DNA from: Candidatus Humimicrobiia bacterium
Lineage (GTDB): Bacteria > Actinomycetota > Humimicrobiia > JAHJRV01
Length of the DNA: 64,000 bases
Direction of reading: 5' to 3'
NCBI GenBank assembly: GCA_049647085.1
Contig: JBARXA010000016.1
Coordinates: 310,593 to 374,592, forward strand
Part shown: positions 8,819 through 62,680 of the stretch, piece by piece
Layout: every line of letters begins with the position of its first letter
Numbering within the stretch: position 1 is the first letter of the stretch
Notes under the pieces: model-generated
Databases searched by the model: none
The model's input: the letters and a program-made list of their open reading frames with translations, nothing else
Told to the model about the DNA's origin: nothing
Program-made: the position numbers and the translations under genes

Positions 8819-9964
8819 TTGGAAAATAATTATTATGTTTTAGGTATAGATGAGGCAGGATATGGACCAGATATTGGTCCACTTGTTGTAACATCTTCAC
8901 TTTTTAGACTTAGTGAAAAATATCATTCAGAGAAATTTTGGGAGACTCTTTCTGAAATAGTCTCAAAAAAAACAAAAGAATTTCCAGAAAAAGTAATAGT
9001 TTCAGATAGTAAAGATATATTTAAAAATCATCCAAAAAATTATTTAATAGGTGAAACTACTACTTTGTGTTCTTACTGTCTCTTATATCCTGTGCCACTT
9101 AATTTTCAAGAATTCCTACAAAATATATTCTTAGATAACTTAGATTTATTTCAAAAAAGATGCAAAACTTTTAGCAAATACACATATAGAATGTGTTGGG
9201 GTAATAATGATTTTTTTTCTGAAGATCCTTTAAATTCTAAAAATTTAAATCCAAAACCCTATATTAATGATTTATTCCCAAAACTAAAAAAAGTTATAAA
9301 AAGTTCAGGAATTGATTTAATAGATATAAAAAGTATAGTTTTATGTCCACATTTATATAATAAATCAATTACTAAAAAAAGGAAGCTTTTTTTAAATTAC
9401 TTACAATTTGAGAGATTAATAGAAAATGCTTTAAAAAGGATTTTGATAAAAAATATTTCAGTTAAAGATAAAGAAGAGACAGAAAAGTTAGAAAAAAAAT
9501 ATAAAAAAGAAACTATAAATTTTAAAAAGAATGAGCAAAAGAATAATTTAAATTCAATTTTTGTAATTGCTGATAAGCTTGGATCAAAAAAATATTATAT
9601 TAATTATCTTAAAAGTGGATTGCTTGGAAATTTCAAAATAAAAATTTTGGAACAAAACAGAAATATATCTTCTTATGAGCTATCAAATAGTTTGGCAGTA
9701 AGAATATCATTTATAAAGGAAGGTGACAAAACCCACTTCCCCATTGCTTTATCTTCTGTTTTTTCAAAATACATTCGAGAGAGGTTTATTAAAAATATAA
9801 ATGAATTCTTTGCAACAAAAATTCAAAATTTAAAACCAACAAAGGGGTATGCATATAAAATAGAAAAATTTATTGAAGTTACAAATGATGTAAGAAAAAA
9901 ATATGATATTGCTACAAATTGTTTTTTAAGAAAAAGGGATAGTCTCTTGCGCTTATTTGATTAA
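8819..9964 (+). CDS. RNase HII-like protein with a large internal Lys/Asn-rich insertion
   Basis: N-terminal VLGIDEAGYGP and VSDSKDIF match RNase HII catalytic motifs; IFVIADKLGSK and GDKTHFPIALSSVFSK match the later motifs. About 180 aa of low-complexity sequence separates them. TTG start in the ORF track, no clear RBS. Confidence 0.45.
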   Translation: MENNYYVLGIDEAGYGPDIGPLVVTSSLFRLSEKYHSEKFWETLSEIVSKKTKEFPEKVIVSDSKDIFKNHPKNYLIGETTTLCSYCLLYPVPLNFQEFLQNIFLDNLDLFQKRCKTFSKYTYRMCWGNNDFFSEDPLNSKNLNPKPYINDLFPKLKKVIKSSGIDLIDIKSIVLCPHLYNKSITKKRKLFLNYLQFERLIENALKRILIKNISVKDKEETEKLEKKYKKETINFKKNEQKNNLNSIFVIADKLGSKKYYINYLKSGLLGNFKIKILEQNRNISSYELSNSLAVRISFIKEGDKTHFPIALSSVFSKYIRERFIKNINEFFATKIQNLKPTKGYAYKIEKFIEVTNDVRKKYDIATNCFLRKRDSLLRLFD

Positions 9965-19625: not shown

Positions 19626-20741
19626 TTATTCTAAAACATCATCTATTGGTGTATATGCAAGTCCATGGGCATCAGCTACTGGTTTATTTGTTACTTTTCC
19701 TTTACAAACATTTAATCCTTTTTTCAATACATGATCTTCTTTTAATGCTTTCTGCCATCCTTTATTTGCAATCTGTAGTGCATATGATAAAGTTTCATTT
19801 GTTAGTGCAAATGTTGAAGTTCTTGAGAAGGCAGCTGGAATATTTGTAACACAATAATGAACAACTCCCTCCTCAATATAGATTGGATCAGAATGTGAGG
19901 TTGGTCTTGCAGTCTCAACGCTTCCACCCTGATCAATATCCACACATACTATAACAGATCCTGGTTTCATAGATTTTACCATTTGCTTTGTTACTACTTT
20001 TGGAGTTTTTGCTCCAACTATATATATACAAGCGATCAATATATCGGCATCTTTTACAGCTTGTGTAATGTTAAATAAATTTGATTTTAATGTCGAAACA
20101 TTTTCCGGCATTATTTCTTCTAAATAGCGTAATTTTCTTGTAATTTTATCTAAAATAGTAACCTTTGCACCTAAACCAGCAGCAACTTTTGCAGCATTAC
20201 GACCTACCATACCACCACCTAATATAACAATATGTGCTGGTTCAACTCCAGATACACCACTAGGCAAAATTCCTCTTCCACCTTGTGCCTTACTTAAATA
20301 GAAAGCTCCAATAAATGATGCCATTCTTCCTGAAACTTCACTCATAGGAGTTAAAAGTGGAGTTTCCCCATCATCAGTCTCTATGGTCTCATAAGCAATA
20401 CAAATCGCTTTTCTTTCCATCATAACTTTAGTAAGAGCCTCACCTGAAGCAAAATGAAAATATGTAAAAACTATTTGGTTTTCTTTAATCAATTCAAATT
20501 CTTGAGGAAGAGGCTCCTTTATTTTCATAATCATATCTGCTTTGTCAAAAACCTCTTTAGCAGTATCTAATATTTCAGCTCCTACTTCTTTATATTCATC
20601 ATCACTAATACCGCTTCCTATACCAGCACTTTTTTGAATAAATACTTTGTGCCCAGCATTAATTAGCTCAGTTGTACCAGCTGGTGTCAACGCTACTCTA
20701 TATTCATTATCTTTAATTTCTTTAGGAACACCTATGATCAT
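19626..20741 (-). CDS. ald: alanine dehydrogenase
   Basis: 371 aa; MIIGVPKEIKDNEYRVALTPAG N-terminus and NAD-binding GGGMVG motif. Confidence 0.88.
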   Translation of the reverse strand: MIIGVPKEIKDNEYRVALTPAGTTELINAGHKVFIQKSAGIGSGISDDEYKEVGAEILDTAKEVFDKADMIMKIKEPLPQEFELIKENQIVFTYFHFASGEALTKVMMERKAICIAYETIETDDGETPLLTPMSEVSGRMASFIGAFYLSKAQGGRGILPSGVSGVEPAHIVILGGGMVGRNAAKVAAGLGAKVTILDKITRKLRYLEEIMPENVSTLKSNLFNITQAVKDADILIACIYIVGAKTPKVVTKQMVKSMKPGSVIVCVDIDQGGSVETARPTSHSDPIYIEEGVVHYCVTNIPAAFSRTSTFALTNETLSYALQIANKGWQKALKEDHVLKKGLNVCKGKVTNKPVADAHGLAYTPIDDVLE

Positions 20742-21040
20742 TATTTAACCTGCCTTTCTAATTAATTATTATAATTTTAATAATTATAAATCTAAAATAT
20801 TTCACCTCCCATCTTGAATTGTTTATTGAACTAATTCATAATTTTCAAAAATCTAGTTTAAAATAAATTTCAGTTAATCAATTACTTATATCATATAAAT
20901 AAAATATGTAACACCTCCAACGACTAAAGCTGTTGGGTTTCTTTCTAATTTATTCCTAAATTTAAAAATTTAATTTTAAAAAGCTGAATGTTAAAAGAAA
21001 CACTTAGTTCTTTTTGGACTCTTCTTAATTCTTTTTGTAA

Positions 21041-21259
21041 TTATTGTTCGGTAACTTCCCGCTTAACATCAAAAGATATTTGAACTTTTACTCTATATTC
21101 AATAATTTTTCCCTCTTCAACCTTTGCCCAGGAATTTATCACATCTACTCTGTCAATACCCCTGATTGTATGTGATGCATCTGTAATTGCATTTCTCGCA
21201 GCATCACTCCAACTTCTAAAAGAGGAGCCTTCAAGTGTAATAAATTTTTTTACTGCCAT
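21041..21259 (-). CDS. dodecin-family flavin-binding protein
   Basis: MAVKKFITLEGSS...AITDASHTIRGIDRVDVINSWAKVEEGKIIEYRVKVQISF has the dodecin pattern. Start placed at the ATG 6 nt after AAGGAGGT; the track start at 21277 lies within the RBS. Confidence 0.6.
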   Translation of the reverse strand: MAVKKFITLEGSSFRSWSDAARNAITDASHTIRGIDRVDVINSWAKVEEGKIIEYRVKVQISFDVKREVTEQ

Positions 21260-21464
21260 TTTCATACCTCCTTGCATATTAAAATGATTAAGTTATTTAA
21301 AGATATTTTTACATAATTATTGATTCTATTTAAATATAATTATTATTAAATATTTTAAAAAAAGCAATTTTTATTAATTGAAAAAAGAAAAAATTTGAAT
21401 CAGTAATGTTACTACTATATTTTAAAACTAAAATTATTTATGATATCTAAAAAATATTTAGTAA

Positions 21465-21673
21465 GAGATTGCACAGTTTATTCCTTCCCCTTTCCTTCAT
21501 TCCGTTCAAGTACAGACTTTACACTCGAGCTTCAATTCCCCTCCCTTTATGGGAGGGGGTAGGGGGAGGGTTTGATGGAGATTGCCACGCCACCTTCAGT
21601 GGCTCGCAATGACAACCGGGATCTTGTTCGCAATGACAGTCAGGAACTTGCTCCGAACAGGCTGTGCAATCTC
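21465..21673. repeat. MITE-like element with 12-bp perfect terminal inverted repeats (GAGATTGCACAG / CTGTGCAATCTC)
   Basis: The terminal motif recurs at 26773 and in variant form at 19503; the interior contains the GC-rich hairpin/G4 element and GCAATGAC units. Confidence 0.55.
21533..21570 (-). repeat. GC-rich 38-nt hairpin/G4-motif repeat, copy 1 (reverse orientation)
   Basis: Exact reverse complement of the 38-mer at 62598-62635; the plus strand reads GGGAGGGGGTAGGGGGAGGG. Confidence 0.8.
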
Positions 21674-21695
21674 ATTAAAAATAGATTTTAGACTA

Positions 21696-21731
21696 TGTCA
21701 TTGCGAGGAGCGTTAGCGACATGGCAATCTC
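21696..21731 (+). repeat. unit of the GTCATTGCGAG...GCAATCTC repeat family
   Basis: GTCATTGCGAGGAGCGTTAGCGACATGGCAATCTC. Confidence 0.6.
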
Positions 21732-21788
21732 ATTTAAATTTATTATATTTAACATTTTGTTTTAGTAACAACAAAATTAAAACTTCTA

Positions 21789-21817
21789 TTGACCTTTTAA
21801 TATAATTCTTATAGAAT
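21789..21817 (+). promoter_or_regulatory. candidate sigma-70-type promoter (TTGACC, 17-nt spacer, TAGAAT) about 300 nt upstream of the APC permease
   Basis: Hexamer match by eye only. Confidence 0.3.
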
Positions 21818-22112
21818 TACAATATAAATTTAATACAATTAATATTAAAATCATTATTAATTTTATATTAATAGTTCTATTTTAAGCAACAAATTCAAAT
21901 ACATATTCGTCAAAAACCAAAATATGAACTCAAATATTGAGCAGGAATCTACTAAAGTAAGATTATCAAAATCAATATAATACTCAATAATAATATAATT
22001 GATAATCTACTAAAGAAAGGAGGCATATAGAGAATTAATTTTTTATTTGAAAGATTATTCTTTCAAATCACCTCTTGTATAAATATTTTATTAATGTTAG
22101 GAGGTTATTTTT

Positions 22113-23807
22113 ATGCAAGAAGAAAAAAAGTTATTTACTAGAAAAGCTACAGGATTAGTACGAGAAATAGGAGTTGGAACTGCAGTTCTTATAGCTATTG
22201 CTAATGTTGTTGGGTTGGGATGGCAAAAAAGAGTATTTCAGGCAACAGGTTGGGCTCCGGTTGGTGAGAGTAAATTTCTTCTTGGAATTCATCCAGTTGT
22301 AATGGCGTTCGCTATTACCGGAATAATTATTTTGGTATCATTGTACTGTTTTTCAATGTTATCAGCTGCTATGCCAAGATCGGGTGGTGGATACATATTC
22401 ATTTCCAGAATTCTAAATCCAGGCCTTGGGTTTGTAGCTACATGGTTACAGTTCTTTGCTGTTGCTGTTTCTTATGGATTAATAGCTGTTGCAACAATGG
22501 AAGCTGTCTGGCTTTTTGCAGGATTAGCTGGTGTTACACTTCCTGGATGGCTTACTAGTCCTATTGGATTATTCTTGTGGGGTGTATTAGTACTTGTAAT
22601 CTTTAGTGGTATCGCATTCTATGGAATAAAATTGACTGGAAAATTACTTCAATGGCTATTCTGGATTCCAGCATTTATATTAGTGATTGTATATATACTA
22701 TTCATTATTGCAACTCCAGGAACTATGGAGACAGGTGTTCAATCACTATTTGGTGCTAATGCTGCTGAGTATACACAAGCAGCTATTGATCAGGGAATGG
22801 CAGATACAGCAGCAGGAAATACCTACTGGGGAGCAGTTGGAACTGCAATGTTAGCAGCTTATTGGGCTTATATTGGTTATGCTGCTGCTTCATTTGTTGC
22901 TGGTGAGGTAAAAGAAGCACACAAGAGTTTACCAAAAGCTATGTTTACATCTGGATTAGTTATTATTGGTATCTATATGACTATTTCAACACTAATGGCA
23001 AGAGCTGCAATGATGGCTGGAAAAGTTGGAGATTTCTCGTTGATGTCAGCTATAGGATATCTTAATTTCGGAGGAGGAAGCTTTGCAGATGCTGGCTTAA
23101 ACTCAATTGGTGGATGGATGCCAGTTATTGGTGCAATATCAGCTGCAGGACGTGGATTTGGAGCAGGATTTATGTGGATACTGATATTATTTGCAGCTTT
23201 ATGGGTTGCTAATGACATTCCACCCTTCATTTTGACATCTTCAAGAATGATATTTGCTATGGCTTTTGATAGAGTTTTACCTGATAAATTAGCAAAAGTT
23301 AATGAGAAATGGCATTCACCAGTAAACGCAATTATTTTTGTGTCACTTGTTGCAATATTTGGTTGTGCTGCTGAAGCTGATCTTTTTGGAAAGAGCGGTA
23401 TATACTTAGGTGAATTCATACACTCAATCATAAATCCTGGTGGAGCTATTGCAGCGACTGACATATGGGATGCAATATTCTTCTTAGTTGTATGTATTGC
23501 AGCATTTTATTTCCCAATAAAAAAGCCTGATATATTTGAGAGGTCACCATTTAGAGCTAGTAAAACAGTTACTCAAATAATTGCAGCCCTGGCAATAATA
23601 GGAAATCTTATTGCTTTATGGGTATTCGCTACTAATGAACATGCGTGGAATCTTTTGAAAATAGACAGTTTGAGAGCTGCAATGCCATTCTTGTTCACAA
23701 TTTTCCTTATCGCTTTAGGGTTAGGAATCTACTTGTACTACAGTAATAAAGCCAAGTCAACAGGTGTTGAGCTAACTACAATATTTACGGAAATTCCTCC
23801 AGATTAA
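22113..23807 (+). CDS. APC-superfamily amino acid permease
   Basis: 564 aa, about 12 TM segments, Gly/Ala-rich helices typical of amino acid/polyamine/organocation transporters; TAGGAGGT RBS. Confidence 0.8.
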   Translation: MQEEKKLFTRKATGLVREIGVGTAVLIAIANVVGLGWQKRVFQATGWAPVGESKFLLGIHPVVMAFAITGIIILVSLYCFSMLSAAMPRSGGGYIFISRILNPGLGFVATWLQFFAVAVSYGLIAVATMEAVWLFAGLAGVTLPGWLTSPIGLFLWGVLVLVIFSGIAFYGIKLTGKLLQWLFWIPAFILVIVYILFIIATPGTMETGVQSLFGANAAEYTQAAIDQGMADTAAGNTYWGAVGTAMLAAYWAYIGYAAASFVAGEVKEAHKSLPKAMFTSGLVIIGIYMTISTLMARAAMMAGKVGDFSLMSAIGYLNFGGGSFADAGLNSIGGWMPVIGAISAAGRGFGAGFMWILILFAALWVANDIPPFILTSSRMIFAMAFDRVLPDKLAKVNEKWHSPVNAIIFVSLVAIFGCAAEADLFGKSGIYLGEFIHSIINPGGAIAATDIWDAIFFLVVCIAAFYFPIKKPDIFERSPFRASKTVTQIIAALAIIGNLIALWVFATNEHAWNLLKIDSLRAAMPFLFTIFLIALGLGIYLYYSNKAKSTGVELTTIFTEIPPD

Positions 23808-26669: not shown

Positions 26670-26772
26670 AACCCCTCCTATTTTTATTAATTATATCAGT
26701 AAAATTTAAAGAATCAATATATTGCATTACCTTTTATCACAATTACAAAATGTTAAAAATAATAAATATAAA

Positions 26773-26913
26773 TGAGATTGCACAGCCTGTTGTGGGATAG
26801 ATTGCTTCGCTTACGCTCGCAATGACATACTAGAATCTCGCTCCTCGCAATGACACATTGTCAACATATATTTTTATCATTGCGAGCAAGCTCCTGGTTG
26901 TCATTCAGGAGAG
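26773..26913. repeat. cluster of GAGATTGCACAG / GCAATGAC / GTCATTGCGAG repeat units
   Basis: Starts with GAGATTGCACAGCCTGTT, identical to the terminal repeat of the element at 21465-21673, followed by at least three GCAATGAC/GTCATTGC units in both orientations. Abuts the 3' end of the aldolase gene. Confidence 0.6.
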
Positions 26914-38535: not shown

Positions 38536-40200
38536 TTAATCAAGTTCTTTCAGTCTTTTATACGCAACAGTGCCACCATTACCTGCTTCATAAACTGTTT
38601 TGAAATTTTCCTTATATTTTTCAATTATCGGGTACACATACTTCATAAACCGTTCATTTGTTTTATCCTGTATTATAAAATCAGATTTATTCAAATACTT
38701 TTTTTGTTTTTGTTCATCATCACTATATGGAAATGATATCGTCTCTCTATTAGTTATAATATAAACTAAGAAATTACTCCTGCTAAGTATTGAACTGCCA
38801 TCATAAGAATTTTCCTTTAACCAATACATTGCATCATAGAAATTCTCCCATGATTTACCATATATAAATTTTTTATTATTTTTATAATCAAGACTCTTAT
38901 TTATTACTAAATATCCACCATAGATACTTCCAGTTAAAAATATAATAAAAGTTAGTATTAAAACTGTTGATGCAAATATTTTAATTATTTTTTTTGTTGA
39001 AATTTTTAGTATTATCTCTTTAAAAAACAAGACCCCACTTGAAAAAAGAATGATTAAAATAGGAATTACGCAAACCGTAAGTCTTTCTGATTGCCATGGC
39101 CACATATGAAGACCGATAAAATAAAGTATTAAATATATTGTATAAATATATTTCTTCTTTTTCAAGAAATAAATAATTCCTAAAATAACTAAGATTATAG
39201 AAAGTAAAATTGCAATAAAATATAAATCTTTAATTTTTAATATTTCAAAAAAATTTGAAATATTCCCTTTTAAAATATCTTTTAAGCCATTTGTCAGTTG
39301 CGAAAAAACTGCTTTAAAATAATAATCGAAATTTGATTTTGCTCTTTCAAAAAATTTTATAAAATCTATATTTCCTTCGGAATAGTCACTGAGATTGACC
39401 TTGAAAAACTCACTTACATAGCTAACTTTATTTGAAATCATTGCTCTTAAGTTCCACAAAATAACTGGTACTAATGTAAATACAAAATAAATTCCTGATC
39501 TAATTTTGTTCTCACTTAAAAAGATTTGTATAAATATTGCAAGGATGATGAAAATACCAATTGGTCTGATTAAAAATGTAAATATTGAAAAAAATATCAA
39601 TAAAATAAAATTAAGATTGAGATGCTTTTTTATTCTCTCAAATAAATTATTTTTATCCTCAGAATGTTTGTCATTGTCATCCTGAGCATAGCGAAGGATC
39701 TCAAAATTAAGATTTAACCTACTACTTTCATTCTCAGAATAATTACTCTTACTATTGTTTAAGTATTTAATATTACTTTCTTCGCTAATCTCTCTATAAT
39801 TTAAGTTATAAAAATATAAAGTGATAAGAAGAAAAAGATTATATACAGTCTCTGTCATTACTTTTGATGAGAAACTTAGAAGTTCAGGATGAGTTATAAA
39901 AAAAATTGATGCCAGCAATAAAGTTAATCTATCCAGATCCTTTTTTGCTACAAGATAGAAAAATAATACTGAAAGAATAAAACATGAAACTACAATTATT
40001 TTAGATACTATTAAAATATTTGATTCAATAAATTTAGAACCTAAAATAAAATAAAAAAATGATAATATAAGTGGAAAACCTGGATATGCCTTGTAATCAG
40101 GAGGATTTTCTGGATAATTTATTAATTTAAATCCAATTCCTTGAGAAATGGATTTTCCAAGTATCATATATCTTGCATTATCACCAAAACAAGATAACAC
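38536..40200 (-). CDS. glycosyltransferase family 39/83-like membrane protein (ArnT/PMT-like); 5' end uncertain
   Basis: Polytopic membrane protein with a DNARY-type motif near the N-terminus. A predicted TM helix lies in frame upstream of the track ATG with no ATG; contains an in-frame repeat-family insert. Confidence 0.55.
   Translation of the reverse strand: MLSCFGDNARYMILGKSISQGIGFKLINYPENPPDYKAYPGFPLILSFFYFILGSKFIESNILIVSKIIVVSCFILSVLFFYLVAKKDLDRLTLLLASIFFITHPELLSFSSKVMTETVYNLFLLITLYFYNLNYREISEESNIKYLNNSKSNYSENESSRLNLNFEILRYAQDDNDKHSEDKNNLFERIKKHLNLNFILLIFFSIFTFLIRPIGIFIILAIFIQIFLSENKIRSGIYFVFTLVPVILWNLRAMISNKVSYVSEFFKVNLSDYSEGNIDFIKFFERAKSNFDYYFKAVFSQLTNGLKDILKGNISNFFEILKIKDLYFIAILLSIILVILGIIYFLKKKKYIYTIYLILYFIGLHMWPWQSERLTVCVIPILIILFSSGVLFFKEIILKISTKKIIKIFASTVLILTFIIFLTGSIYGGYLVINKSLDYKNNKKFIYGKSWENFYDAMYWLKENSYDGSSILSRSNFLVYIITNRETISFPYSDDEQKQKKYLNKSDFIIQDKTNERFMKYVYPIIEKYKENFKTVYEAGNGGTVAYKRLKELD
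39670..39702. repeat. repeat-family unit inserted in-frame within the glycosyltransferase CDS
   Basis: GTCATTGTCATCCTGAGCATAGCGAAGGATCTC; 33 nt, encodes EILRYAQDDND in a low-complexity loop. Confidence 0.5.
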
Positions 40201-43387: not shown

Positions 43388-43485
43388 TTAATTTTCTCCT
43401 TTCTTTTAAAAATGTTTATTTTAAATTTAAAAATTAATATTAAGGAAAATCTTATCATTTTACCAGATTCTTTAATATATTTGAT

Positions 43486-43520
43486 GAGATTGCTTCGTCG
43501 CTTACGCTCCTCGCAATGAC
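43486..43520 (-). repeat. 35-nt unit of the GTCATTGCGAG...GCAATCTC family (reverse orientation)
   Basis: Plus strand GAGATTGCTTCGTCGCTTACGCTCCTCGCAATGAC; between gap and whiA. Confidence 0.6.
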
Positions 43521-43561
43521 AAATAAATAACAGATATCATCTATAGGGTTTCTAATATTTT

Positions 43562-47763: not shown

Positions 47764-50581
47764 TTAATAAATCCTTTAAATACATACCTGTATAAGATTT
47801 TTTATTTTTTGCAACTTCTTCTGGTGTACCTTCAGCTACTATCCATCCCCCTTCATCACCACCTTCTGGTCCAAGATCAATTATATAATCAGCTGTTTTT
47901 ATTACATCTAAATTATGTTCAATAACAATTACTGTATTTCCCTTATCAACTAATCTGTTTAATACTTTGAGTAGTTTCTTTATATCATCAAAATGAAGTC
48001 CTGTTGTTGGTTCATCCAATATATAAATAGTTCTACCTGTAGCAATTTTTGATAGTTCCTTAGAAATTTTTACTCTTTGAGCTTCTCCCCCTGAGAGTGT
48101 GGTAGCAGATTGACCCAATTTTATATATCCAAGACCAACATCATCAACTAATTGTAATTTTCTTTTTATTCTTGGAATGTTTTTAAAAAACTCTAATGCT
48201 TTTTTAACACTCATATCTAAAACTTCTGAAATATTTTTTCCTTTAAAAGTTACATCTAAAGTTTCATTATTGTACCTTTTTCCCTTACATACATCACAGG
48301 TTACATATATATCAGGCAGAAAATGCATCTCTATTTTAATATTCCCATCACCCCTGCATGCCTCACATCTTCCACCCTTTACATTAAAACTGAATCTACC
48401 TTTTTTATAACCTCTAATTTTTGCTTCTTGAGTCTCCGCAAAGACCTCTCTGATAGGAGTAAATACTCCTGTATATGTTGAAGGATTTGATCTTGGAGTT
48501 CTTCCAATTGGTGATTGGTCAATCTCAATTACTTTATCAATATTTTCTATACCTTTAATGTCTTTGTGCTTACCAGGTTTAAACTTTGACCTGCTATGTA
48601 ATCTATTCATTAGTGCTCTATATAAAATTTCATCAACTAATGTGCTTTTTCCTGAACCCGAAACTCCAGTTATACAAATAAATTTACCAAGTTTAAAAGA
48701 AACATCTATTTCTTTTAAATTATGTTCTTTTGCACCTAATATAACCAAATCTCCTTTATATTCAATTCTTCTCTTATTTGGAACATTGATCTTTTTCTTA
48801 CCACTTAAATACTGTCCAGTTATAGAGGTAGGTTCATTTTTAATATCTTCTATAGTTCCAAGTACAACAACATCCCCGCCACGCTCTCCAGCCCCAGGAC
48901 CTAAATCAACTATAAAATCTGCCTGGTTAATGGTTTCTCTATCATGTTCTATCACAATTAAAGTATTTCCTAAGTCTCTTAATCTTTTTAATGTTTCAAG
49001 AAGTCTCTTATTATCCCTGTTGTGAAGACCTATACTTGGTTCATCAAGAATATATAAAACCCCAATCAAACTTGTTCCAATTTGGGTAGCTAACCTTATT
49101 CTCTGAGCTTCCCCACCGGAAAGACTTCTTGTTTCTCTGTCAAGCGTTAGGTAGTTTAAACCCACATTTTCCATAAAGGCTAATCTTTCTTTTATTTCTT
49201 TTAATATTCTTCTTGCTATTATCTTTTCTTTATTTGTTAATTTAAGATTCTCAATAAAAGATTTGCACTTGGAAACACACATTTGGGTTAGTTCATAAAC
49301 ATTTTTTCCACCAACTGTTACTGCTAAGCTTTCAGGTCTAAGTCTTGCACCATTACATTCAGGACATGGGCTTATGCTCATATATTCTTCAATTTTTTCC
49401 CTACTATATTCAGACTTTGTCTCTGTGTATCTTCTTTCTAAATTATTAATTACACCTTCTACAGAAGTAGGCCATCTTACTACTGTTCCATTATATCTTT
49501 CATACTCAACAAGCACTCTTTCCCCTGGTAAACCATACAAAATTATATTTTGTATATTATTATCTAAATCACTAAATGGTGTTGAAAGACCAAAATTATA
49601 TTTTTTAGAAAGAGCCTTTATATACATTGGAAAAAAGGCTGATGAACTATCTCTCCATAATTTAATAGCTCCCTGTGATAAACTTAGATTTTTATCAGGT
49701 ACTACTAAATCTGGATCTATTTCTTGTTTAAAACCCAACCCATCACAATAAGTACAAGCACCAATAGGACTATTAAAAGAAAACATCCTTGGAGAAAGTT
49801 CCTCAAAGCTTATACCACAATCAAGACAAGCAAATTTTTGAGAAAATATCAAATTTTCTCCATCAATTATCTGAATATAGACTATCCCATCTGATTCCCT
49901 TAATGCTGTTTCAATCGAATCAGCGACTCTTTTTCTTATATTGGATTTAGACACCAATCTATCTATTACTATTTCAATATCATGTTTTTTATATTTTTCC
50001 AAAAGAATCTCATCTTCCAAACTTTTTAGCTCTCTATCCACTCTAACTCTTACATAACCCTTCCTTCTTATCTGATCAAATAGATTTTTATATTCCCCTT
50101 TTCGACCCTTAATTACTGGTGATAGAATCATATATTTTGTACCTTTAGAAAGTTTTAAAACCTTATCTATTATCTGTTGTGGTGATTGTTGAGATATTTC
50201 TTTCCCACATATATGACAATGAGGCTCTCCAATTCGAGCATAAAGTAATCTAATATAATCATATATTTCAGTTATAGTCCCCACAGTTGAACGAGGATTT
50301 TTAGTAGCACCTTTCTGGTCAATTGAAATAGCAGGAGAAAGACCTTCAATATAATCAACATCAGGTTTTTCCATCTGCTCAAGAAATTGTCTTGCGTAAG
50401 CAGAAAGAGATTCTACATACCTTCTCTGACCTTCAGCATAAATGGTGTCAAATGCAAGACTGGATTTACCAGAACCACTGATACCAGTTATTACAATCAT
50501 CTTATCTCTTGGAAGATCTAAATTTATATTTTTTAAATTGTGCTCACGAGCACCTCTTATAATAAGCTTCTTCTCTTTCAT
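47756..50581 (-). CDS. uvrA: excinuclease ABC subunit A
   Basis: 941 aa; tandem ABC ATPase modules, zinc-finger cysteines, [12 protein letters not shown]-terminus. Confidence 0.95.
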
Positions 50582-57779: not shown

Positions 57780-60700
57780 TTAGCTTTCCATTTTAACAGT
57801 TCCCTTTTCACCCAAAAAGTTATTAATTTCATCTAAAAATTCTTCTGATTGAGTTACACTTAGAGAACTACCTAATTTAAAGGTTTTTAAAGATTTATCA
57901 GATTTTAATTTGATGATAACATTAGATGGACCTGGGTTATTTAATAGAATCCTTCTAAGCCTGTGCAAAAAATGATCATTTATACTATTTAAATCCAACT
58001 CTATAACCAAATTTGGTTTAACCTTTTTAGATGCAGGTTTCTTATGTTTTAACTCTATTTCTTCAATTTCACTTGCTATCAACTTCGCTTGGTCCTCTTT
58101 TATATCAACTCTACCCTTGATTCCTATTATCACATCTTCTATAAGAAATTCATGAAATTTTTTAAGTACAGAGGGAAAAATTATAACTTCTATAGAGTTG
58201 CTAATATCTTCTAAGGTTAGAAAAAGCATTATTTCTCCTTTTTTAGTTGTAATTCTCTTAATCTTAGAAACAACTCCTGCAATTTTTATTAAGCTTTTAT
58301 CTGTAAACTTTTTAATTTCACTAATCTGACAATCACTGTATTTATCCAATTGATGCTCATAACCAATTAATGGATGGTCTGAAACATATAATCCCAACAT
58401 CTCTTTCTCGTATGCTAACAACTTCTTCCGAGAAAATTCTGTTCTTTTCTCAGGTAAAGCTGTAATTAGTGCATCCTTAAGAGTTGTGTCAGCATCAAAA
58501 AGAGAAAATTGACCTATTTCTTTATTACTTCTTATAGTAAGGACATGAGAGACAATTCTTTTATAATTTTTTATAAGTGATTGTCTTGTTAGTCCCAACG
58601 AGTCAAATGCTCCAGCCTTTATCAGGCTTTCTAATGTCTTTTTATTTAAGACAACAGGATCCACCATACTACAAAAATCTACAAATGATTTAAACTTTCC
58701 TTTATCTTTTCTATTAGATACTATATTTTGAATAACATTATCTCCCACATTTTTTACTGCAGATAATCCAAACCTTATTTTATTTCCCACCACTGTGAAG
58801 TTAGAAAAGCTTTCATTAACATCAGGGGGTAATATTTTAATTCCAAGTCTTCTACATTCATTTACATACCGGGCTACTTTTTCCTGATCTTCCATCCTGA
58901 CAGTAAGTAATGCAGCCATAAATACAACAGGGAAATTTGCTTTTAGATATGCAGTTTGATAGGAGATTAAAGCATAAGCAGCAGAGTGTGATTTATTAAA
59001 CCCATACTCCGCAAATAATAGTAACAAATCAAAAATTTTCTGAGCTGCTCCCCTGTTTATCCCATTTTTCAAAGCTCCATCAAGGAATTTATCTCTCTGT
59101 TTGGATAATACTCTTCTCTTCTTTTTACTTATAGCACCTCTTAAAATATCAGCTTCTGCCATGGTAAAATTTGCCATTTTTGATGCAATTTCCATAACCT
59201 GTTCCTGATAAACAATAATTCCGTAAGTTGTATCCAGGATAGATTCTAATGATGGGTGTGAGTATCTTATTTTTGTTTTTCCCTTTTTTGCTTCTACAAA
59301 ATCTTTAACCATTCCACTTTGCAGTGGACCAGGTCTATAAAGTGCAAGTAATGCAATCAGGTCTTCAATGCAATTTGGCTGTAAATCTATCATCAGATTT
59401 CTCATTCCTGAACTTTCAAGCTGAAAAATACCAATCGTTTCTCCATGACTTATCATTGAAAATGTCTTTTTATCCTGTAAATCAATCTCATTTAAGTTAA
59501 TTTCTATCTCATTGGTATGCTTTATTATTTCAAGGGTTTTGTCAATAAGGGTTAAAGTTTTTAGTCCTAAAAAATCCATCTTTAAAAGTCCAATTCTTTG
59601 CACATCATCCATTTTATATTGAGTAACAACTTCACCATTTCCTTTTCTTTGTAAAGGAGTGTACTCAGTCAAATCCTCGTCAGATATAACAACACCAGCT
59701 GCATGAATAGAATCCTGTCTTGAAAGTCCCTCTAAAGCCATGGCTGTATCCAGTATCTTCTTAACTTCCTCATCTTTTTGATAAAAATCTCTTAATTCTG
59801 GAACAGTATTAATAGATTTATCAATAGTTATTCCTATTCCCACAGGAATCATCTTTGCTACTTTATCAACCTTTCCATATGGAACACCAAAAACTCTACC
59901 TGCATCACGAGTTGCTGCTCTTGCAGCCATTGTCCCAAAAGTTATAAGCTGAGCTACTTTATTTCTTCCATACTTGCTAACAACATAATCAATGACTTCA
60001 TTTCTTCTTTCATAACAGAAATCTATGTCAATATCCGGAAGACTTTTTCTATGCGGATTCAAGAATCGCTCAAAAAGCAGACCGTATTCTATTGGATCAA
60101 TATCAGTTATTCCAAGACAGTATGAAACTATACTTCCAGCTGCTGACCCTCTCCCAGGTCCTACTCTTATACCACTTCTTTTAGCGTAGTTTACAAAGTC
60201 CCAAACAATTAAAAAATATCCAGAATATCCCATATCTTTTATAACAATAAGTTCTCGTTCCAATCTATCTTTTATCTCATCTGTGGGATCAGAATATCTC
60301 TTATTAAATCCTTCTCTGCAGATTTCTTCCAGGTAACTATCTAAATTATAATTTTCTGGAACTTTATAGGCTGGTAGTAAATCTAAATTTAATGGTATTT
60401 CTAAATTACATTTTTCTGAAATTTCTATGCTATTTTTTAGAACCTCGGGAATATCTTTGAAAATATCAAACATTTCCTCTTTGGATTTAAAATAAAATTC
60501 AGGAGTGGAAAAACGAAGTCTTTCTTTATCATCTAAAGTAGTTCTTGTTTGAATACAGAGTAAAACATCATGAGCAGTATGGTTTTCTTTATTTAGGTAG
60601 TGAGCATCATTGGTTGCCACTAAAGGAATATTTAATTTCTCTGACATTTTAATTAATTTTGGGTTTAAAATCTTTTGTTCTTCTAAACCTTGATCCTGAA

Positions 60701-61241
60701 TTTCCAAATAAAAATTCTCTTTACCAAAGATCTCACAAAACTTTGAAGCAGATTCAATTGCTTCATTAATTCTATCTTCTAAAATCAACCTCGGAATATT
60801 ACCTGAAATACAACCAGATAGAGCAATAAGTCCTGAACTATGCTCATTTAGGAGTTCGTAATCAATTCTAGGTTTGTAATAATATCCTTCAAAATAACTC
60901 TTGGTAATAAGCTTCATCAGGTTTTTATAACCTTGGATATCTTTAGCTAAAAGAGTTAGATGATTAGACTTTTCCTCTCTTTTAGATTTATTAAATCTGG
61001 AATTTATTGCAACATAAAATTCACATCCAATTATAGGTTTAATATTTACCTCTTTTGCTAAGTTATAAAATTCTATAGCACCATACATGTTGCCATGGTC
61101 AGTTATAGCTACCGAGTGCATATTAAACTCTTTGGCTTTTGAAATTAAATTCGGTATCTTTATTGCTCCATCCAGTAAAGAGAATTCTGTATGAGTATGA
61201 AGATGAATAAAATCTGGAATATTTTTTGCCAATTTAAGCAC
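57780..61241 (-). CDS. dnaE: DNA polymerase III subunit alpha
   Basis: 1153 aa; N-terminal PHP domain (HLHTHTEFSLLDG), polymerase core, OB fold. Confidence 0.95.
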   Translation of the reverse strand: MLKLAKNIPDFIHLHTHTEFSLLDGAIKIPNLISKAKEFNMHSVAITDHGNMYGAIEFYNLAKEVNIKPIIGCEFYVAINSRFNKSKREEKSNHLTLLAKDIQGYKNLMKLITKSYFEGYYYKPRIDYELLNEHSSGLIALSGCISGNIPRLILEDRINEAIESASKFCEIFGKENFYLEIQDQGLEEQKILNPKLIKMSEKLNIPLVATNDAHYLNKENHTAHDVLLCIQTRTTLDDKERLRFSTPEFYFKSKEEMFDIFKDIPEVLKNSIEISEKCNLEIPLNLDLLPAYKVPENYNLDSYLEEICREGFNKRYSDPTDEIKDRLERELIVIKDMGYSGYFLIVWDFVNYAKRSGIRVGPGRGSAAGSIVSYCLGITDIDPIEYGLLFERFLNPHRKSLPDIDIDFCYERRNEVIDYVVSKYGRNKVAQLITFGTMAARAATRDAGRVFGVPYGKVDKVAKMIPVGIGITIDKSINTVPELRDFYQKDEEVKKILDTAMALEGLSRQDSIHAAGVVISDEDLTEYTPLQRKGNGEVVTQYKMDDVQRIGLLKMDFLGLKTLTLIDKTLEIIKHTNEIEINLNEIDLQDKKTFSMISHGETIGIFQLESSGMRNLMIDLQPNCIEDLIALLALYRPGPLQSGMVKDFVEAKKGKTKIRYSHPSLESILDTTYGIIVYQEQVMEIASKMANFTMAEADILRGAISKKKRRVLSKQRDKFLDGALKNGINRGAAQKIFDLLLLFAEYGFNKSHSAAYALISYQTAYLKANFPVVFMAALLTVRMEDQEKVARYVNECRRLGIKILPPDVNESFSNFTVVGNKIRFGLSAVKNVGDNVIQNIVSNRKDKGKFKSFVDFCSMVDPVVLNKKTLESLIKAGAFDSLGLTRQSLIKNYKRIVSHVLTIRSNKEIGQFSLFDADTTLKDALITALPEKRTEFSRKKLLAYEKEMLGLYVSDHPLIGYEHQLDKYSDCQISEIKKFTDKSLIKIAGVVSKIKRITTKKGEIMLFLTLEDISNSIEVIIFPSVLKKFHEFLIEDVIIGIKGRVDIKEDQAKLIASEIEEIELKHKKPASKKVKPNLVIELDLNSINDHFLHRLRRILLNNPGPSNVIIKLKSDKSLKTFKLGSSLSVTQSEEFLDEINNFLGEKGTVKMES

Positions 61242-61392
61242 CTTTTAGAAAATAAATTAAAAGTCTCACTTTTTAATTTAGTGAAGTTATAAGTTATTAA
61301 AAATTAAATTACATTTAAGAATTAAATTAGTACAATATTGTCTTAATAATAACACAATAAAAAAAGCATTTATTAGAATTTTAAATATACAC

Positions 61393-61488
61393 CCTCCCCC
61401 TACCCCCTCCCATAAAGGGAGGGGAATCATAAGAGAAGTTCTCATTACCCCTCATATAAAGGGAGGGGAATCATAAGAGAAGTTCTCC
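61393..61488 (+). repeat. GC-rich hairpin/G4-motif repeat, copy 2, followed by a tandem partial duplication
   Basis: CCCTCCCCCTACCCCCTCCCATAAAGGGAGGGGAAT, then a roughly 45-nt unit (TAAAGGGAGGGGAATCATAAGAGAAGTTCTC...) repeated about twice. Confidence 0.8.
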
Positions 61489-61627
61489 TTACCTCTCCTA
61501 TAAAGACATTCTATATCAAATGAAAAATAAGTATTAAACTGTTAAAAAATAAAAATATTTGAGTCATACCTTGAAAATTTAATAAGAGAGGAATTGAGTA
61601 AAAATATAAATTTTTTTTAAATCTTAT

Positions 61628-62509
61628 TTATCGGGTGTACATTTTGCAAAAATTTATACTTCTTTTAAGTCGATCTTTAACTCTTCTTTTACTCCAAATG
61701 TTAAGTGCTATAGGAGAAATTTCTAAAGTTAGAAAATTGTTATAACTATTTTTTAAAATAAATTTTAAAAATTCTTTTAGTGGTATTTTTCCAATATAAG
61801 GTGGTTCATGTTTCCTTCTTTTAGTGTTGCTTATATGGATATTTATTACTCTGGATTTAAGAATATTAAAGCTATCTTCAATATTATAGCTTTTTAATCC
61901 ATGATGAGTTGTATCGAAAGTGATGAATAAATTGTGTTTCAAAACATAGTTTATTAGAACCTTTGGATCAGTAAAATGTCTCTTTCCCAAATTAACTCTT
62001 CTATCTAAAACAGTTTCAACTGTAATTAATGGTTCTAAATTGCTTTCTCTAAATTGTTTATTTAAATTTTTACTTTCATTTTTTATTTTTTCAAATTTAC
62101 TTAATTTGTAAAATGATCCCTGCTTAATCTTCGAGATAGCTTCAAGAAACTGTTTTGAATAATTATCCCACCATGGATATGAATTATCAGACCTTAGAAA
62201 AATAGGTAAATGAATAGTTACTAATTTACATCGTAGCTGACTTGCAATATTAAAGGTTAATTCTAAAGTTTTCTTAACTCCAAGTTTCCAATAAATCATA
62301 AAAAGAGGTTGGTGAACTGTATAGACTGGCAAATTATAATGATTTATAAGATTATTAAGTTTAAGAATATTTTTTTCTATATCCCCTTTTAAGCAGTTGT
62401 TATCTATAACCAACTCTAATCCATCAAATCCCACATCCTTTGCTATAGAGAAAACTTCTTTATGTGAATATGGATATAAAGAAGCTGTCGATAGTAGAAT
62501 TTTTAACAT
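61628..62509 (-). CDS. sugar phosphate isomerase/epimerase (xylose-isomerase-like TIM barrel)
   Basis: 293 aa; family assignment from overall sequence pattern, low specificity. Confidence 0.55.
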   Translation of the reverse strand: MLKILLSTASLYPYSHKEVFSIAKDVGFDGLELVIDNNCLKGDIEKNILKLNNLINHYNLPVYTVHQPLFMIYWKLGVKKTLELTFNIASQLRCKLVTIHLPIFLRSDNSYPWWDNYSKQFLEAISKIKQGSFYKLSKFEKIKNESKNLNKQFRESNLEPLITVETVLDRRVNLGKRHFTDPKVLINYVLKHNLFITFDTTHHGLKSYNIEDSFNILKSRVINIHISNTKRRKHEPPYIGKIPLKEFLKFILKNSYNNFLTLEISPIALNIWSKRRVKDRLKRSINFCKMYTR

Positions 62510-62597
62510 AATTATTAATCTATTTTAATTTAAATTTAATATTTTAAAATCTAAGAGTTCTAATAGATTTGTGGCATGGTTTCGAAGACATTTCAAA

Positions 62598-62635
62598 CCC
62601 TCCCCCTACCCCCTCCCATAAAGGGAGGGGAATTG
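62598..62635 (+). repeat. GC-rich hairpin/G4-motif repeat, copy 3
   Basis: CCCTCCCCCTACCCCCTCCCATAAAGGGAGGGGAATTG, identical to the reverse complement of 21533-21570. Confidence 0.8.
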
Positions 62636-62680
62636 AGTGAAACGAAGAGAGAAACTATGCCCAAATCTTCCAAAAGTTAT

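What the first reader, a model, noticed from the sequence alone, without database searches (positions are those of the whole stretch)
61393..61488. GC-rich 38-nt hairpin plus G-quadruplex-motif repeat, three copies in 5' leaders
CCCTCCCCCTACCCCCTCCCATAAAGGGAGGGGAATTG occurs at 61393-61427 and 62598-62635, and as its exact reverse complement at 21533-21570. In a roughly 30% GC genome three near-identical GC-rich 38-mers cannot be chance. Each copy has a perfect 8-bp hairpin (CCCCTCCC / GGGAGGGG, loop ATAAA), and the opposite strand carries four G-runs (GGGAGGGGGTAGGGGGAGGG) fitting the canonical G4 pattern. In all three cases the G-run strand is the sense strand of the next downstream gene (APC permease, sugar-phosphate isomerase, dnaE). 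GGGAGGGG is also a Shine-Dalgarno-like string that the hairpin would sequester. This copy is followed by a tandem partial duplication of a roughly 45-nt unit containing the palindrome GAGAAGTTCTC.
Basis: seen in the sequence. Interest (0 to 1): 0.6.

Follow-up and report, generated by a model that had tools for sequence, protein, structure and literature searches.

The report
Hairpin repeat partnered with DUF559 nucleases
The GC-rich 38-mer is real, but rather than a gene-specific G-quadruplex switch it is a solo copy of a small hairpin repeat found in many bacterial phyla, whose full-length form is a tiny DUF559 endonuclease gene flanked by inverted copies of the same repeat, a pairing I found no description of.

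Summary
There are three copies (21533-21570 minus strand, 61392-61429, 62598-62635), a partial fourth in a 44-nt tandem duplication, an 8-bp hairpin and four G-runs; none is expected by chance.

The copies lie between genes, 47-200 nt after one stop codon and 88-542 nt before the next start. They are too far away to mask a ribosome site. Hairpins are predicted to beat the G-quadruplex.

The 38-mer is a cassette. In related metagenome contigs it sits in the loop of a 53-55-nt AT-rich hairpin repeat that also exists empty. In a 99.3-99.6% identical strain the 62.6-kb copy is replaced by a different repeat.

The same architecture (C-arm, spacer, C-arm, loop, G-arm) occurs in at least six phyla. 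There it abuts or flanks ~115-aa DUF559 (Vsr-like PD-(D/E)XK) nuclease genes: 10 of 13 genes lie within 150 nt, against 0 of 20000 permutations. About two thirds of 139 diverse DUF559 proteins end in a translated copy of the repeat.

The closest precedents are REP/RAYT and NTS/Ssn. The window's second repeat, GTCATTGCGAGG..GCAATCTC, is an Ssn-type motif.

No DUF559 gene was found in the window or in about 190 kb of relatives' contigs. The nuclease's role in this genome is therefore inferred, not shown.

The parts
62597..62633 (+). Module A, copy 3 (C-rich strand on +): C1 CCCTCCCCC, spacer TA, C2 CCCCCTCCC, loop ATAAA, G-arm GGGAGGGG, then AAT
   Evidence: I1, I5; hairpin
62565..62668 (+). Composite element: an AT-rich base hairpin with module A inserted in its loop. 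Left stem 62565-62583 AGATTTGTGGCATGGTTTC; right stem 62651-62668 GAAACTATGCCCAAATCT
   Evidence: Folds with z = -6.0 to -6.6. Empty base hairpins occur in L125, L128 and L139. Positions 62545-62638 are replaced by other modules in the 99.3-99.6% identical strain L126
61391..61427 (+). Module A, copy 2 (C-rich strand on +), without the base-hairpin left stem
   Evidence: I5. The orthologous copy in L126 is identical
61404..61491 (+). Tandem 44-nt duplication (61404-61447 and 61448-61491, 93% identical): C2-loop-G plus the linker AATCATAAGAGAAGTTCTC. The second unit holds a degenerate hairpin, CCCCTCATATAAAGGGAGGGG
   Evidence: D2. The linker recurs in L125, L128, L129, L132, L134 and L139
21535..21571 (-). 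Module A, copy 1 (C-rich strand on -)
   Evidence: I1, I5
21446..21692 (.). Mosaic repeat cluster bounded by 38-nt imperfect inverted arms (21446-21483 and 21655-21692). It contains module A and Ssn-type motifs
   Evidence: I12; sequence; identical arrangement in L136
21578..21613 (-). Ssn-related motif (SRM/NTS-like hairpin) GAGATTGCCACGCCACCTTCAGTGGCTCGCAATGAC, directly next to module A
   Evidence: consensus from PMC11893778
21696..21733 (+). Ssn-related motif TGTCATTGCGAGGAGCGTTAGCGACATGGCAATCTCAT
   Evidence: I6; PMC11893778
43484..43521 (-). Ssn-related motif between whiA and gap, the reverse complement of the 21696 copy at 89%
   Evidence: I6

Best explanation
The 38-mer ('module A') is a solo, non-autonomous copy of a small structured repeat family with three arms: C-arm, 2-5-nt spacer, C-arm, pentaloop, G-arm. 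The family's full-length form is a 0.45-0.55-kb unit made of one DUF559 (Vsr-like, PD-(D/E)XK) endonuclease gene bracketed by inverted copies of the repeat.

Shown:
- The module is a discrete cassette found in unrelated sequence contexts.
- In this lineage (Candidatus Humimicrobiia, Actinomycetota) it sits in the loop of an AT-rich hairpin repeat that also exists empty.
- It is gained, lost or swapped between near-identical strains.
- The same architecture, often with the same 21-nt core, flanks DUF559 genes in several phyla.
- In Bacteroidales, short inverted pairs are internally deleted copies of the DUF559 unit.

Inferred, by analogy with REP/RAYT and NTS/Ssn:
- The DUF559 nuclease recognises the folded repeat, probably as single-stranded or extruded DNA, and cuts at or beside it.
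- This drives copying of the cassette into exposed sites such as hairpin loops and homogenises the copies.
- In the autonomous unit the upstream G-arms also serve as the nuclease gene's ribosome-binding site, which the C-arm can mask.
- In the window the solo copies are passengers in intercistronic spacers. Their strong structure may incidentally affect mRNA processing or stability.
For: Cassette behaviour:
- Three exact copies lie in different flanks.
- 16 further loci from related low-GC contigs carry the exact 36-mer.
- Filled base hairpins are 100-140 nt and empty ones 53-55 nt.
- At an orthologous site, window 62545-62638 differs from L126 8257-8406 although 9.6 kb around it is 99.3-99.6% identical.
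- Logan contigs carrying the 293-aa gene end exactly in the repeats.

Cross-phylum family:
- The 21-nt core hit more than 118 loci in Desulfuromonadales, Bacteroidales, Nitrospirota, Ignavibacteria, Planctomycetota, Omnitrophota and others.
- Nearly all of them also carry the upstream C-arm, which was not part of the search pattern.

Nuclease link:
- tblastn found 13 DUF559 genes in 867 kb of those loci. 10 lie within 150 nt of the core, against 0 of 20000 permutations.
- The Pfam DUF559 match has E = 2e-34.
- The genes are bracketed by inverted modules, and their ORF ends read into the module.
- An independent test used three DUF559 proteins chosen for lacking a tell-tale tail (Scalindua and two MAG contigs). 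All three have C-loop-G-G immediately before the start codon, and two have C-C-loop-G after the stop.
- 84 of 115 close homologues and 92 of 139 representatives of 50%-identity clusters end in translated module sequence, for example HPPLTPPIKGGE and SPSPQPSPTRGEG.
- 54 of those 139 representatives begin with ..SPLVGEGQGGG.
- Arm sequences differ between units while pairing is kept: CCCCTCCC/GGGAGGGG, CCCTCGCCC/GGGCGAGGG, CCCCCCTTTG/CAAAGGGGGG.
- Bacteroidales inverted pairs share 77-90 nt of subterminal sequence with the 546-bp unit.

Precedent in the same lineage: a GIY-YIG gene flanked by inverted Ssn-type motifs is inserted between uvrB and uvrA in L121, whereas those two genes overlap in the window.
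Against: - No DUF559 gene is present in the 64-kb window or in about 190 kb of relatives' contigs, even with a profile HMM. A partner nuclease in this genome is therefore unproven.
- No nuclease activity on the repeat has been shown for any DUF559 protein. The closest solved structure, 3HRL, is uncharacterised.
- Adjacency could mean that the nuclease gene homes into pre-existing repeats rather than spreading them.
- The exact-pattern searches bias the sample towards identical copies.
- The strong sense-strand bias in this lineage (about 12:1) could reflect a host function rather than passive carriage.
- Only about 7% of the module copies in the sampled loci lie next to a DUF559 gene.
Confidence: 0.6

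Rival explanations
1. One reading: a cis-acting RNA switch in 5-prime leaders. A G-quadruplex on the sense strand competes with a hairpin that masks a Shine-Dalgarno-like GGGAGGGG, tuning translation of dnaE, the TIM-barrel gene and the permease.
For: - Four G-runs and the hairpin are present.
- The G-rich strand is sense at 3 of 3 window sites and about 12 of 13 sites in relatives.
- The four C/G tracts are conserved across phyla.
- In autonomous units the G-arms do lie at ribosome-site distance from the DUF559 start codon.
Against: - The distances to start codons are 88, 150 and 542 nt.
- The downstream genes are functionally unrelated, and the same cassette is present or absent between near-identical strains.
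- Hairpins are predicted to be more stable than the quadruplex.
- Across phyla orientation is mixed, 44 C-sense against 27 G-sense, and copies occur between convergent genes and even in frame inside an ORF.
- There is no Rfam family match.
Confidence: 0.08
2. A host-selected structural element. It would be a REP-like intercistronic hairpin that blocks 3-prime exonucleases, directs RNase processing, or terminates or attenuates transcription, and it would be kept for that reason whatever its origin.
For: - It is intercistronic between co-directional genes, with a strong sense-strand bias in this lineage.
- The composite structures are very stable, z = -5 to -6.6.
- The copy at 61392 scores as terminator-like on the sense strand.
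- REPs are known to have such effects (background in PMC3733652 and PMC2817692).
Against: - Only 1 of 3 copies has a T-rich tail.
- Presence or absence and cassette swapping between 99.3-99.6% identical strains argue against a site-specific requirement.
- The orientation bias could equally come from strand-specific insertion coupled to replication, in a genome whose genes are almost all co-oriented.
- This rival is not exclusive of the main explanation.
Confidence: 0.22
3. A classical REP/REPIN mobilised by a RAYT (IS200-like Y1 transposase), or a MITE derived from a DDE insertion sequence.
For: - It is a short extragenic imperfect palindrome found in mosaic clusters like BIMEs.
- The window copy contains GTAG on the G-strand.
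- Inverted pairs occur in Bacteroidales.
- The composite has 18-19-nt inverted termini.
Against: - The GTAG lies in the variable spacer and is not conserved elsewhere, where the spacer reads TAA, CAG, TTA or TTAAT.
- The gene found between and next to the repeats is DUF559, not a Y1 transposase or a DDE transposase.
- No target-site duplication is evident.
- No transposase is present in the window.
Confidence: 0.07

Closest known systems
NTS/SRM repeats with Ssn (GIY-YIG) single-strand nucleases (Chenal et al. 2025, PMC11893778)
   Same: - A ~100-aa single-domain nuclease gene is bracketed by inverted hairpin repeats.
- The same repeats are dispersed in tens to hundreds of solo copies, mostly extragenic and directional.
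- Repeat and nuclease occur as many co-varying pairs across phyla.
- The architecture is IS-like.
- The window itself carries SRM-type motifs next to module A, and a relative has an SRM-GIY-YIG-SRM insertion between uvrB and uvrA.
   Different: - The nuclease fold differs: PD-(D/E)XK Vsr-like DUF559 instead of GIY-YIG.
- The repeat differs: C/G-tract arms with a third, duplicated arm and no GTCATT..AATC frame.
- Biochemical activity is demonstrated for Ssn but not for DUF559.
REP/BIME/REPIN elements with RAYT transposase-like proteins (PMC2817692, PMC3116915, PMC3733652)
   Same: - They are short GC-rich extragenic palindromes arranged in mosaic clusters.
- Singlets and inverted doublets both occur.
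- A small gene flanked by the repeats is the presumed mobilising enzyme.
- They cause assembly breaks and strain polymorphism.
   Different: - There is no conserved GTAG or CGTC head.
- The partner is not a HUH/Y1 enzyme.
- A nearly identical core occurs in several phyla, whereas REP sequences are usually lineage-specific.
Small dispersed repeats of cyanobacteria (Elhai et al. 2008; recalled from memory, cited in PMC5861425 and PMC3116915)
   Same: - They are very small (about 21-27 nt) structured units.
- They are found nested inside other repeats and hairpins.
- They are inferred to be mobile without an identified enzyme.
   Different: - They are confined to one cyanobacterial subgroup.
- No nuclease partner has been proposed.
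- I did not test sequence relatedness.
EDxHD / Vsr-like homing endonucleases (I-Bth0305I, PMC3239194; free-standing genes in fractured-gene loci, PMC2677866)
   Same: - They belong to the same DUF559/Vsr superfamily.
- They are selfish free-standing genes.
- Hairpins immediately upstream of the start codon are proposed to mask the ribosome site.
   Different: - Those genes home into single specific sites in phage genes, introns or inteins.
- They are not tied to a dispersed genomic repeat family.
Bacterial G-quadruplex regulatory motifs
   Same: The complement carries four G-tracts with 1-nt outer loops, resembling the c-MYC type (from memory).
   Different: - A complementary C-arm is built into the same strand and is predicted to win.
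- The position relative to genes is inconsistent.

Membership tests
DUF559-flanking three-arm hairpin repeats (family defined operationally here) | Architecture: C-arm, 2-5-nt spacer, C-arm, 4-5-nt loop, complementary G-arm | tested here: met
   All three window copies have it. The same layout occurs in nearly all of 155 cross-phylum copies, although only C2-loop-G was searched for.
DUF559-flanking three-arm hairpin repeats (family defined operationally here) | Sequence identity of the core with copies that directly abut DUF559 genes | tested here: met
   The exact 21-mer CCCCTCCCATAAAGGGAGGGG lies 22-145 nt from DUF559 ORFs in L022, L055, L070, L088, L094, L103, L024, L083, L099 and L118. Protein tails such as HHPPLTPPIKGGEN are translations of it.
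DUF559-flanking three-arm hairpin repeats (family defined operationally here) | A partner DUF559 gene in the same genome | tested here: inconclusive
   None was found in the window or in L121-L139 by tblastn or a profile HMM. This covers only about 250 kb, and the source contig is 426 kb.
SRM/NTS repeats of Ssn nucleases | (C/T)GTCATT - stem - loop - stem - AATC frame | tested here: not met
   The 38-mer has no such frame. The neighbouring repeats at 21578-21613, 21696-21733 and 43484-43521 do have it.
SRM/NTS repeats of Ssn nucleases | Flanks a cd10448-type GIY-YIG gene | tested here: not met
   Genes next to module A-type repeats are DUF559. The GIY-YIG gene in L121 is flanked by SRMs, not by module A.
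REP / REPIN (RAYT-associated) | 20-40-nt imperfect palindrome, extragenic and multicopy | tested here: met
REP / REPIN (RAYT-associated) | Conserved GTAG or CGTC tetranucleotide at one end of the palindrome | tested here: not met
   GTAG occurs only because the window's spacer is TA/CTA. Other lineages have TAA, CAG, TTA or TTAAT.
REP / REPIN (RAYT-associated) | A Y1 (RAYT) gene flanked by the repeat | tested here: inconclusive
   No such gene was seen next to modules, and the flanked gene is DUF559. A Y1_Tnp ORF lies 1.3 kb from one DUF559 unit in L145 and L146 and was not analysed. No genome-wide test was possible.
Canonical G-quadruplex motif | Four runs of at least 3 G with loops of 1-7 nt | tested here: met
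   GGGAGGGGGTAGGGGGAGGG. The four tracts are conserved across phyla.
Canonical G-quadruplex motif | The quadruplex is the favoured fold in its native context | tested here: not met
   In the ViennaRNA RNA model, the proximal hairpin is -19.0, the distal hairpin -20.2 and the isolated G4 -14.5 kcal/mol. This is in silico only.
Canonical G-quadruplex motif | Quadruplex formation in vitro or in vivo | not testable with these tools
   Needs CD, thioflavin T or K+/Li+ assays.
SD-sequestering leader / riboregulator | The masked SD-like string lies at ribosome-site distance from the regulated start codon | tested here: not met
   The distances are 88, 150 and 542 nt in the window and 60-109 nt in relatives. 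The feature is met only for DUF559 genes themselves.
Intrinsic terminator | GC-rich hairpin followed directly by a U-tract | tested here: not met
   Only the 61392 copy is scored as terminator-like. The 62598 and 21533 copies are not.
MITE | Terminal inverted repeats plus target-site duplication, and a related autonomous IS | tested here: inconclusive
   The composite at 62565-62668 has 18-19-nt inverted termini. No duplication is evident and no transposase was identified.
Any curated RNA family (Rfam 15) | Covariance-model match | tested here: not met
   Only four tRNAs reach gathering score. Nothing credible appears up to E = 10 (best 0.27) around the copies.

The most novel reading that the evidence does not exclude
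DUF559 proteins of this clade would be a third, structurally unrelated class of small nucleases, after the HUH RAYTs and the GIY-YIG Ssn enzymes. Each would recognise its own three-arm C/G-rich hairpin repeat, probably as single-stranded or extruded DNA. Each would create, spread and homogenise these repeats across bacterial phyla. The clade comprises 13,023 clusters at 50% identity with E <= 1e-10. The 'PSPxPSPxxGEG' tails that litter DUF559 annotations would be the footprints of this partnership. The solo copies in this Humimicrobiia genome would be its non-autonomous progeny.
Probability: 0.45. Interest if true: 0.85.

Novelty: new variant of a known kind. Interest (0 to 1): 0.7.

Why it matters
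If DUF559 nucleases act on these repeats, four things follow.
- A very large protein family of unknown function gets a testable role.
- A widespread class of GC-rich 'junk' hairpins and spurious Pro/Gly-rich ORF tails in genome annotation gets an origin.
- It would show that the arrangement 'small nuclease gene plus its own hairpin repeat' has evolved at least three times from different folds.
- As with Ssn, such enzymes could become programmable structure- or sequence-specific DNA tools.

For this window the practical message is narrower. The 38-mer should be annotated as a dispersed repeat cassette that breaks short-read assemblies and varies between strains, not as a dedicated regulator of dnaE, the TIM-barrel gene or the permease.

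Tried and rejected
- Rfam, at gathering score and at permissive E-values: no family.
- Literature searches by sequence strings found only Pseudomonas REPs and unrelated primers. REP survey papers do not list the motif. No paper in the library links DUF559 to repeats.
- Intramolecular triplex (C1 as Hoogsteen strand): dropped. CCCTCCC is mirror-symmetric, so 'mirror' and 'direct' repeats cannot be told apart, and Bacteroidales copies carry A instead of T in C1.
- Intrinsic terminator: only 1 of 3 copies qualifies.
- Phage vector: only 2 hits in 2.9 million viral contigs.
- Transposase in the window: none among the ORFs scanned.
- DUF559 in the window or its relatives: none by tblastn or profile HMM.
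- Retrieving the source contig through the exact UvrB protein failed.
- Strand choice from G-U versus C-A mismatches in the base hairpin: too few informative positions.

Full report
**1. The observation**

The 38-mer CCCTCCCCCTACCCCCTCCCATAAAGGGAGGGGAATTG occurs exactly at 62598-62635 (plus strand) and 21533-21570 (minus strand). It occurs with two mismatches in its last three bases at 61392-61429. Shuffles give 0.00 expected matches. Thirty-seven bases are identical in all three copies, and 44 are identical between 21532-21575 and 62593-62636.

The window is 30% GC. The 8-bp stem CCCCTCCC/GGGAGGGG with loop ATAAA is present, and so are the four G-runs on the complement. The copy at 61392 is followed by a 44-nt tandem duplication (61404-61447 and 61448-61491, 93% identical) that contains GAGAAGTTCTC (D2).

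**2. Gene context in the window**

- dnaE is 57780-61241 (minus strand).
- A xylose-isomerase-like TIM-barrel gene is 61628-62509 (minus).
- gatB starts at 62681 (minus).
- Alanine dehydrogenase is 19626-20741 (minus).
- An amino-acid permease is 22113-23807 (plus).

The two copies near 62 kb lie between co-directional genes. They are 47 and 200 nt after the upstream stop codon and 88 and 150 nt before the next start. The third copy lies in a 1.37-kb divergent spacer, 542 nt before the permease start. The best promoter-like matches fall between it and the gene.

None of the copies is at ribosome-binding-site distance from a start codon. Only the 61392 copy scores as terminator-like. Rfam has no match at any threshold.

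On the G-rich strand two alternative hairpins are nearly isoenergetic: the C-arm pairs with the nearer G-arm (-19.0 kcal/mol) or the farther one (-20.2). Both are predicted to be more stable than the isolated quadruplex (-14.5 kcal/mol).

**3. Source organism**

UvrB of the window is 100% identical to a protein of an NCBI MAG named Candidatus Humimicrobiia bacterium, on a 426-kb contig. This is a class of Actinomycetota. WhiA has only metagenomic close relatives. Short-read (Logan) contigs that carry the 293-aa TIM-barrel protein are 1.1 kb long, and both of their ends fall inside the repeats. That is what a multicopy element does to an assembly graph.

**4. The 38-mer is a cassette inside mosaic repeats**

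A metagenome scan with the exact 36-mer returned 16 low-GC loci. In most of them the module sits between the two halves of an AT-rich inverted repeat, AGCTTTGTGGTATAGTTTC ... GAAACTATACCCAAAGCT. The window copy at 62598 belongs to such a composite, 62565-62668.

The same base hairpin also exists empty, at 53-55 nt (L125 at 6896, L128 at 3562, L139 at 197). It also exists filled with other GC-rich modules. Filled elements of 100-140 nt carry module A alone, or module A plus the linker AATCATAAGAGAAGTTCTCCTT and a second hairpin of similar design. The composites fold far better than shuffles (z = -5.3 to -6.6).

The 21533 copy lies in a 247-nt mosaic (21446-21692) bounded by imperfect inverted arms (I12).

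Locus L126 comes from a strain 99.3-99.6% identical to the window over 9.6 kb. Its flanks are identical at the gatB/TIM-barrel spacer. However, window 62545-62638 (left stem plus module A) is replaced there by three modules of a different family. The cassette therefore turns over on a strain time scale.

**5. Orientation**

In the low-GC lineage, among co-directional gene pairs, the G-rich strand is the sense strand at about 12 distinct sites against 1. It cannot separate a transcriptional cause from strand-specific insertion coupled to replication, because almost all genes in the window are co-oriented.

Across phyla no such rule holds: 44 copies are C-sense, 27 G-sense, 19 lie between convergent genes and 8 between divergent genes. 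ORF calling in the GC-rich genomes is crude.

**6. The family is spread over many phyla**

The hits are in Geobacter and other Desulfuromonadales, rumen and gut Bacteroidales, Ca. Magnetobacterium and other Nitrospirota, Ignavibacteria, Planctomycetota, Omnitrophota, Spirochaetia and others. Their GC backgrounds are very different.

Nearly every hit also has the upstream C-arm, which I did not search for: ACCCTCCCC plus 2-5 nt, or GACCCACCCCC plus 3 nt in Bacteroidales. In Bacteroidales the copies often come as inverted pairs about 75-190 nt apart (mostly 100-140). In Desulfuromonadales they are often followed by a mirror-image module, CCCTCTCCCC-TTGT-GGGAGAGGG-CTA-GGGAGAGGGG. Viral contigs hold only two copies.

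**7. The partner gene**

Some Bacteroidales pairs lie about 480 nt apart. Between them is a 126-aa ORF that matches Pfam DUF559 with E = 2e-34. This is the Vsr-like PD-(D/E)XK family, which also contains the EDxHD homing endonuclease I-Bth0305I.

A tblastn search with this ORF over all fetched loci found 13 DUF559 genes in 867 kb. Ten lie within 150 nt of the core, against none of 20000 random placements. The hosts are Bacteroidales, Ignavibacteria, Desulfuromonadales and other Deltaproteobacteria, and Nitrospirota.

- In Bacteroidales the unit is 5'-[C1-C2-loop-G]-gene-[C-loop-G2-G1]-3', about 520-550 bp with 45-bp inverted ends.
- Elsewhere it is usually 5'-[C-loop-G2-G1]-gene-[C1-C2-loop-G]-3'.
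- The G-arms end 4-10 nt before the start codon.
- The ORF runs into C1, and the stop codon often lies in the spacer or the loop.

Three DUF559 proteins were picked because their sequences showed no such tail. They come from Ca. Scalindua rubra and from two unrelated MAG contigs. Their DNA shows the same arrangement.

Most homologues end in translated module sequence, for example IPSP*, HHPPLTPPIKGGEN, PLSPALSHKERGS, SPSPQPSPTRGEGV. This holds for 84 of 115 close homologues and 92 of 139 representatives of 50%-identity clusters. Fifty-four of those 139 start with ..SPLVGEGQGGG-type heads. The clade has 13,023 clusters at E <= 1e-10.

Arm sequences differ from unit to unit while pairing is preserved. 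That is what co-evolving repeat and enzyme pairs would look like. Bacteroidales short pairs share 77-90 nt of subterminal sequence with the 546-bp unit, so they are internally deleted derivatives. Contigs carrying these genes are typically under 2.5 kb, again a sign of multicopy flanks.

**8. Precedent, and the second repeat of the window**

The other GC-rich repeat of the window is TGTCATTGCGAGGAGCGTTAGCGACATGGCAATCTCAT (21696-21733, 43484-43521, 21578-21613). It has the frame of the NTS / Ssn-related motif, CGTCATT-stem-loop-stem-AATC. That motif was described in 2025 together with the GIY-YIG single-strand nucleases that it flanks and that cut beside it (PMC11893778).

In relative L121 a 95-aa GIY-YIG gene bracketed by inverted copies of this motif is inserted between uvrB and uvrA. 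In the window those two genes overlap. So the lineage demonstrably hosts one 'small nuclease plus own hairpin repeat' system. Module A looks like the repeat of a second system with an unrelated nuclease fold.

**9. Mechanism: shown and inferred**

Shown:
- cassette behaviour, nesting in hairpin loops and strain polymorphism;
- cross-phylum conservation of the architecture;
- a tight and general physical association with DUF559 genes;
- the autonomous / deleted-derivative relationship in Bacteroidales.

Inferred:
- The nuclease recognises the folded repeat and cuts at or near it. Ssn and RAYT both act on single-stranded hairpins (PMC11893778, PMC3479197 title and abstract).
- This promotes copying of the cassette into exposed single-stranded sites and homogenises the copies.
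- The upstream arms double as a maskable ribosome site. This was proposed for hairpins before Vsr-like homing endonuclease genes (PMC2677866).

The alternative direction of causality is that the nuclease gene homes into pre-existing repeats. It is not excluded.

**10. Main weakness**

No DUF559 gene is present in the window or in about 190 kb of relatives' contigs, and I could not reach the rest of the genome. The closest solved structure is N. gonorrhoeae 3HRL (E = 3e-23), an uncharacterised structural-genomics entry. No DUF559 activity on such repeats is documented in the library searched.

**11. Verdict**

The feature is real. The G-quadruplex / leader-riboswitch reading is largely unsupported. 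The best-supported identity is a solo cassette of a pan-bacterial hairpin-repeat family partnered with DUF559 nucleases. This is a new variant of the REP/RAYT and NTS/Ssn kind.

Noticed in passing
window 21578-21613, 21696-21733, 43484-43521 (partial copies at 21614-21637 and 26734-26781): A second GC-rich repeat family, GTCATTGCGAGG..GCAATCTC, matches the frame of the NTS/Ssn-related motifs of GIY-YIG single-strand nucleases (PMC11893778). It clusters with module A.
   Followed up: partly
L121 3011-3678, against window 50544-50581: In a relative (about 80-88% nucleotide identity) a 95-aa GIY-YIG gene flanked by inverted Ssn-type motifs, plus a 22-nt tandem array, is inserted between uvrB and uvrA. 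In the window the two genes overlap, so this is an empty site.
   Followed up: yes
window 62545-62638, against L126 8257-8406: A strain 99.3-99.6% identical over 9.6 kb has three Ssn-type modules where the window has the left stem of the base hairpin plus module A. The flanks are identical.
   Followed up: yes
window 20591-22168, against L136 (BART01000229.1): A 99.4-99.7% identical marine-sediment contig has roughly 20972-22168 inverted, plus an inverted duplicate of 20591-20971 (the alaDH 5-prime end). It is either a real invertible spacer that would flip the 21533 copy or a chimeric foldback assembly.
   Followed up: no
L001 and L002 (window 61469-62567 and 61469-62545): Short-read contigs carrying the TIM-barrel gene stop exactly inside the repeats on both sides, showing that the elements break assemblies.
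   Followed up: yes
L098 8-1207: A 399-aa nitrogenase-like ORF of a deltaproteobacterial MAG reads in frame through a pair of modules (..EALPLTPSHKGRGDEFAPSPLV..). This is reminiscent of Rickettsia palindromic elements inside genes.
   Followed up: no
L145 and L146 1-231: A Y1_Tnp (IS200/RAYT-like) ORF and a type I restriction S subunit lie just upstream of one DUF559 unit that is surrounded by many hairpin modules. L145 and L146 diverge inside a module loop.
   Followed up: no
window 4818-4857 and 5295-5334: A 40-nt direct repeat (93% identical) lies around the L20 gene of the infC-rpmI-rplT cluster.
   Followed up: no
window 8819-9964 (+) and 38536-40200 (-): Two long ORFs lie in 23-25% GC stretches and have essentially no family match. 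The 381-aa ORF matches RNase HII only over residues 8-26. The 554-aa ORF has no Pfam hit, and its homologues in relatives also have none.
   Followed up: no
whole window: The source is a Candidatus Humimicrobiia (Actinomycetota) MAG with only 30% GC. WhiA's nearest named relatives are Bacillota at 39% identity. Nearly all genes are on the minus strand, and GC skew is monotonic.
   Followed up: partly
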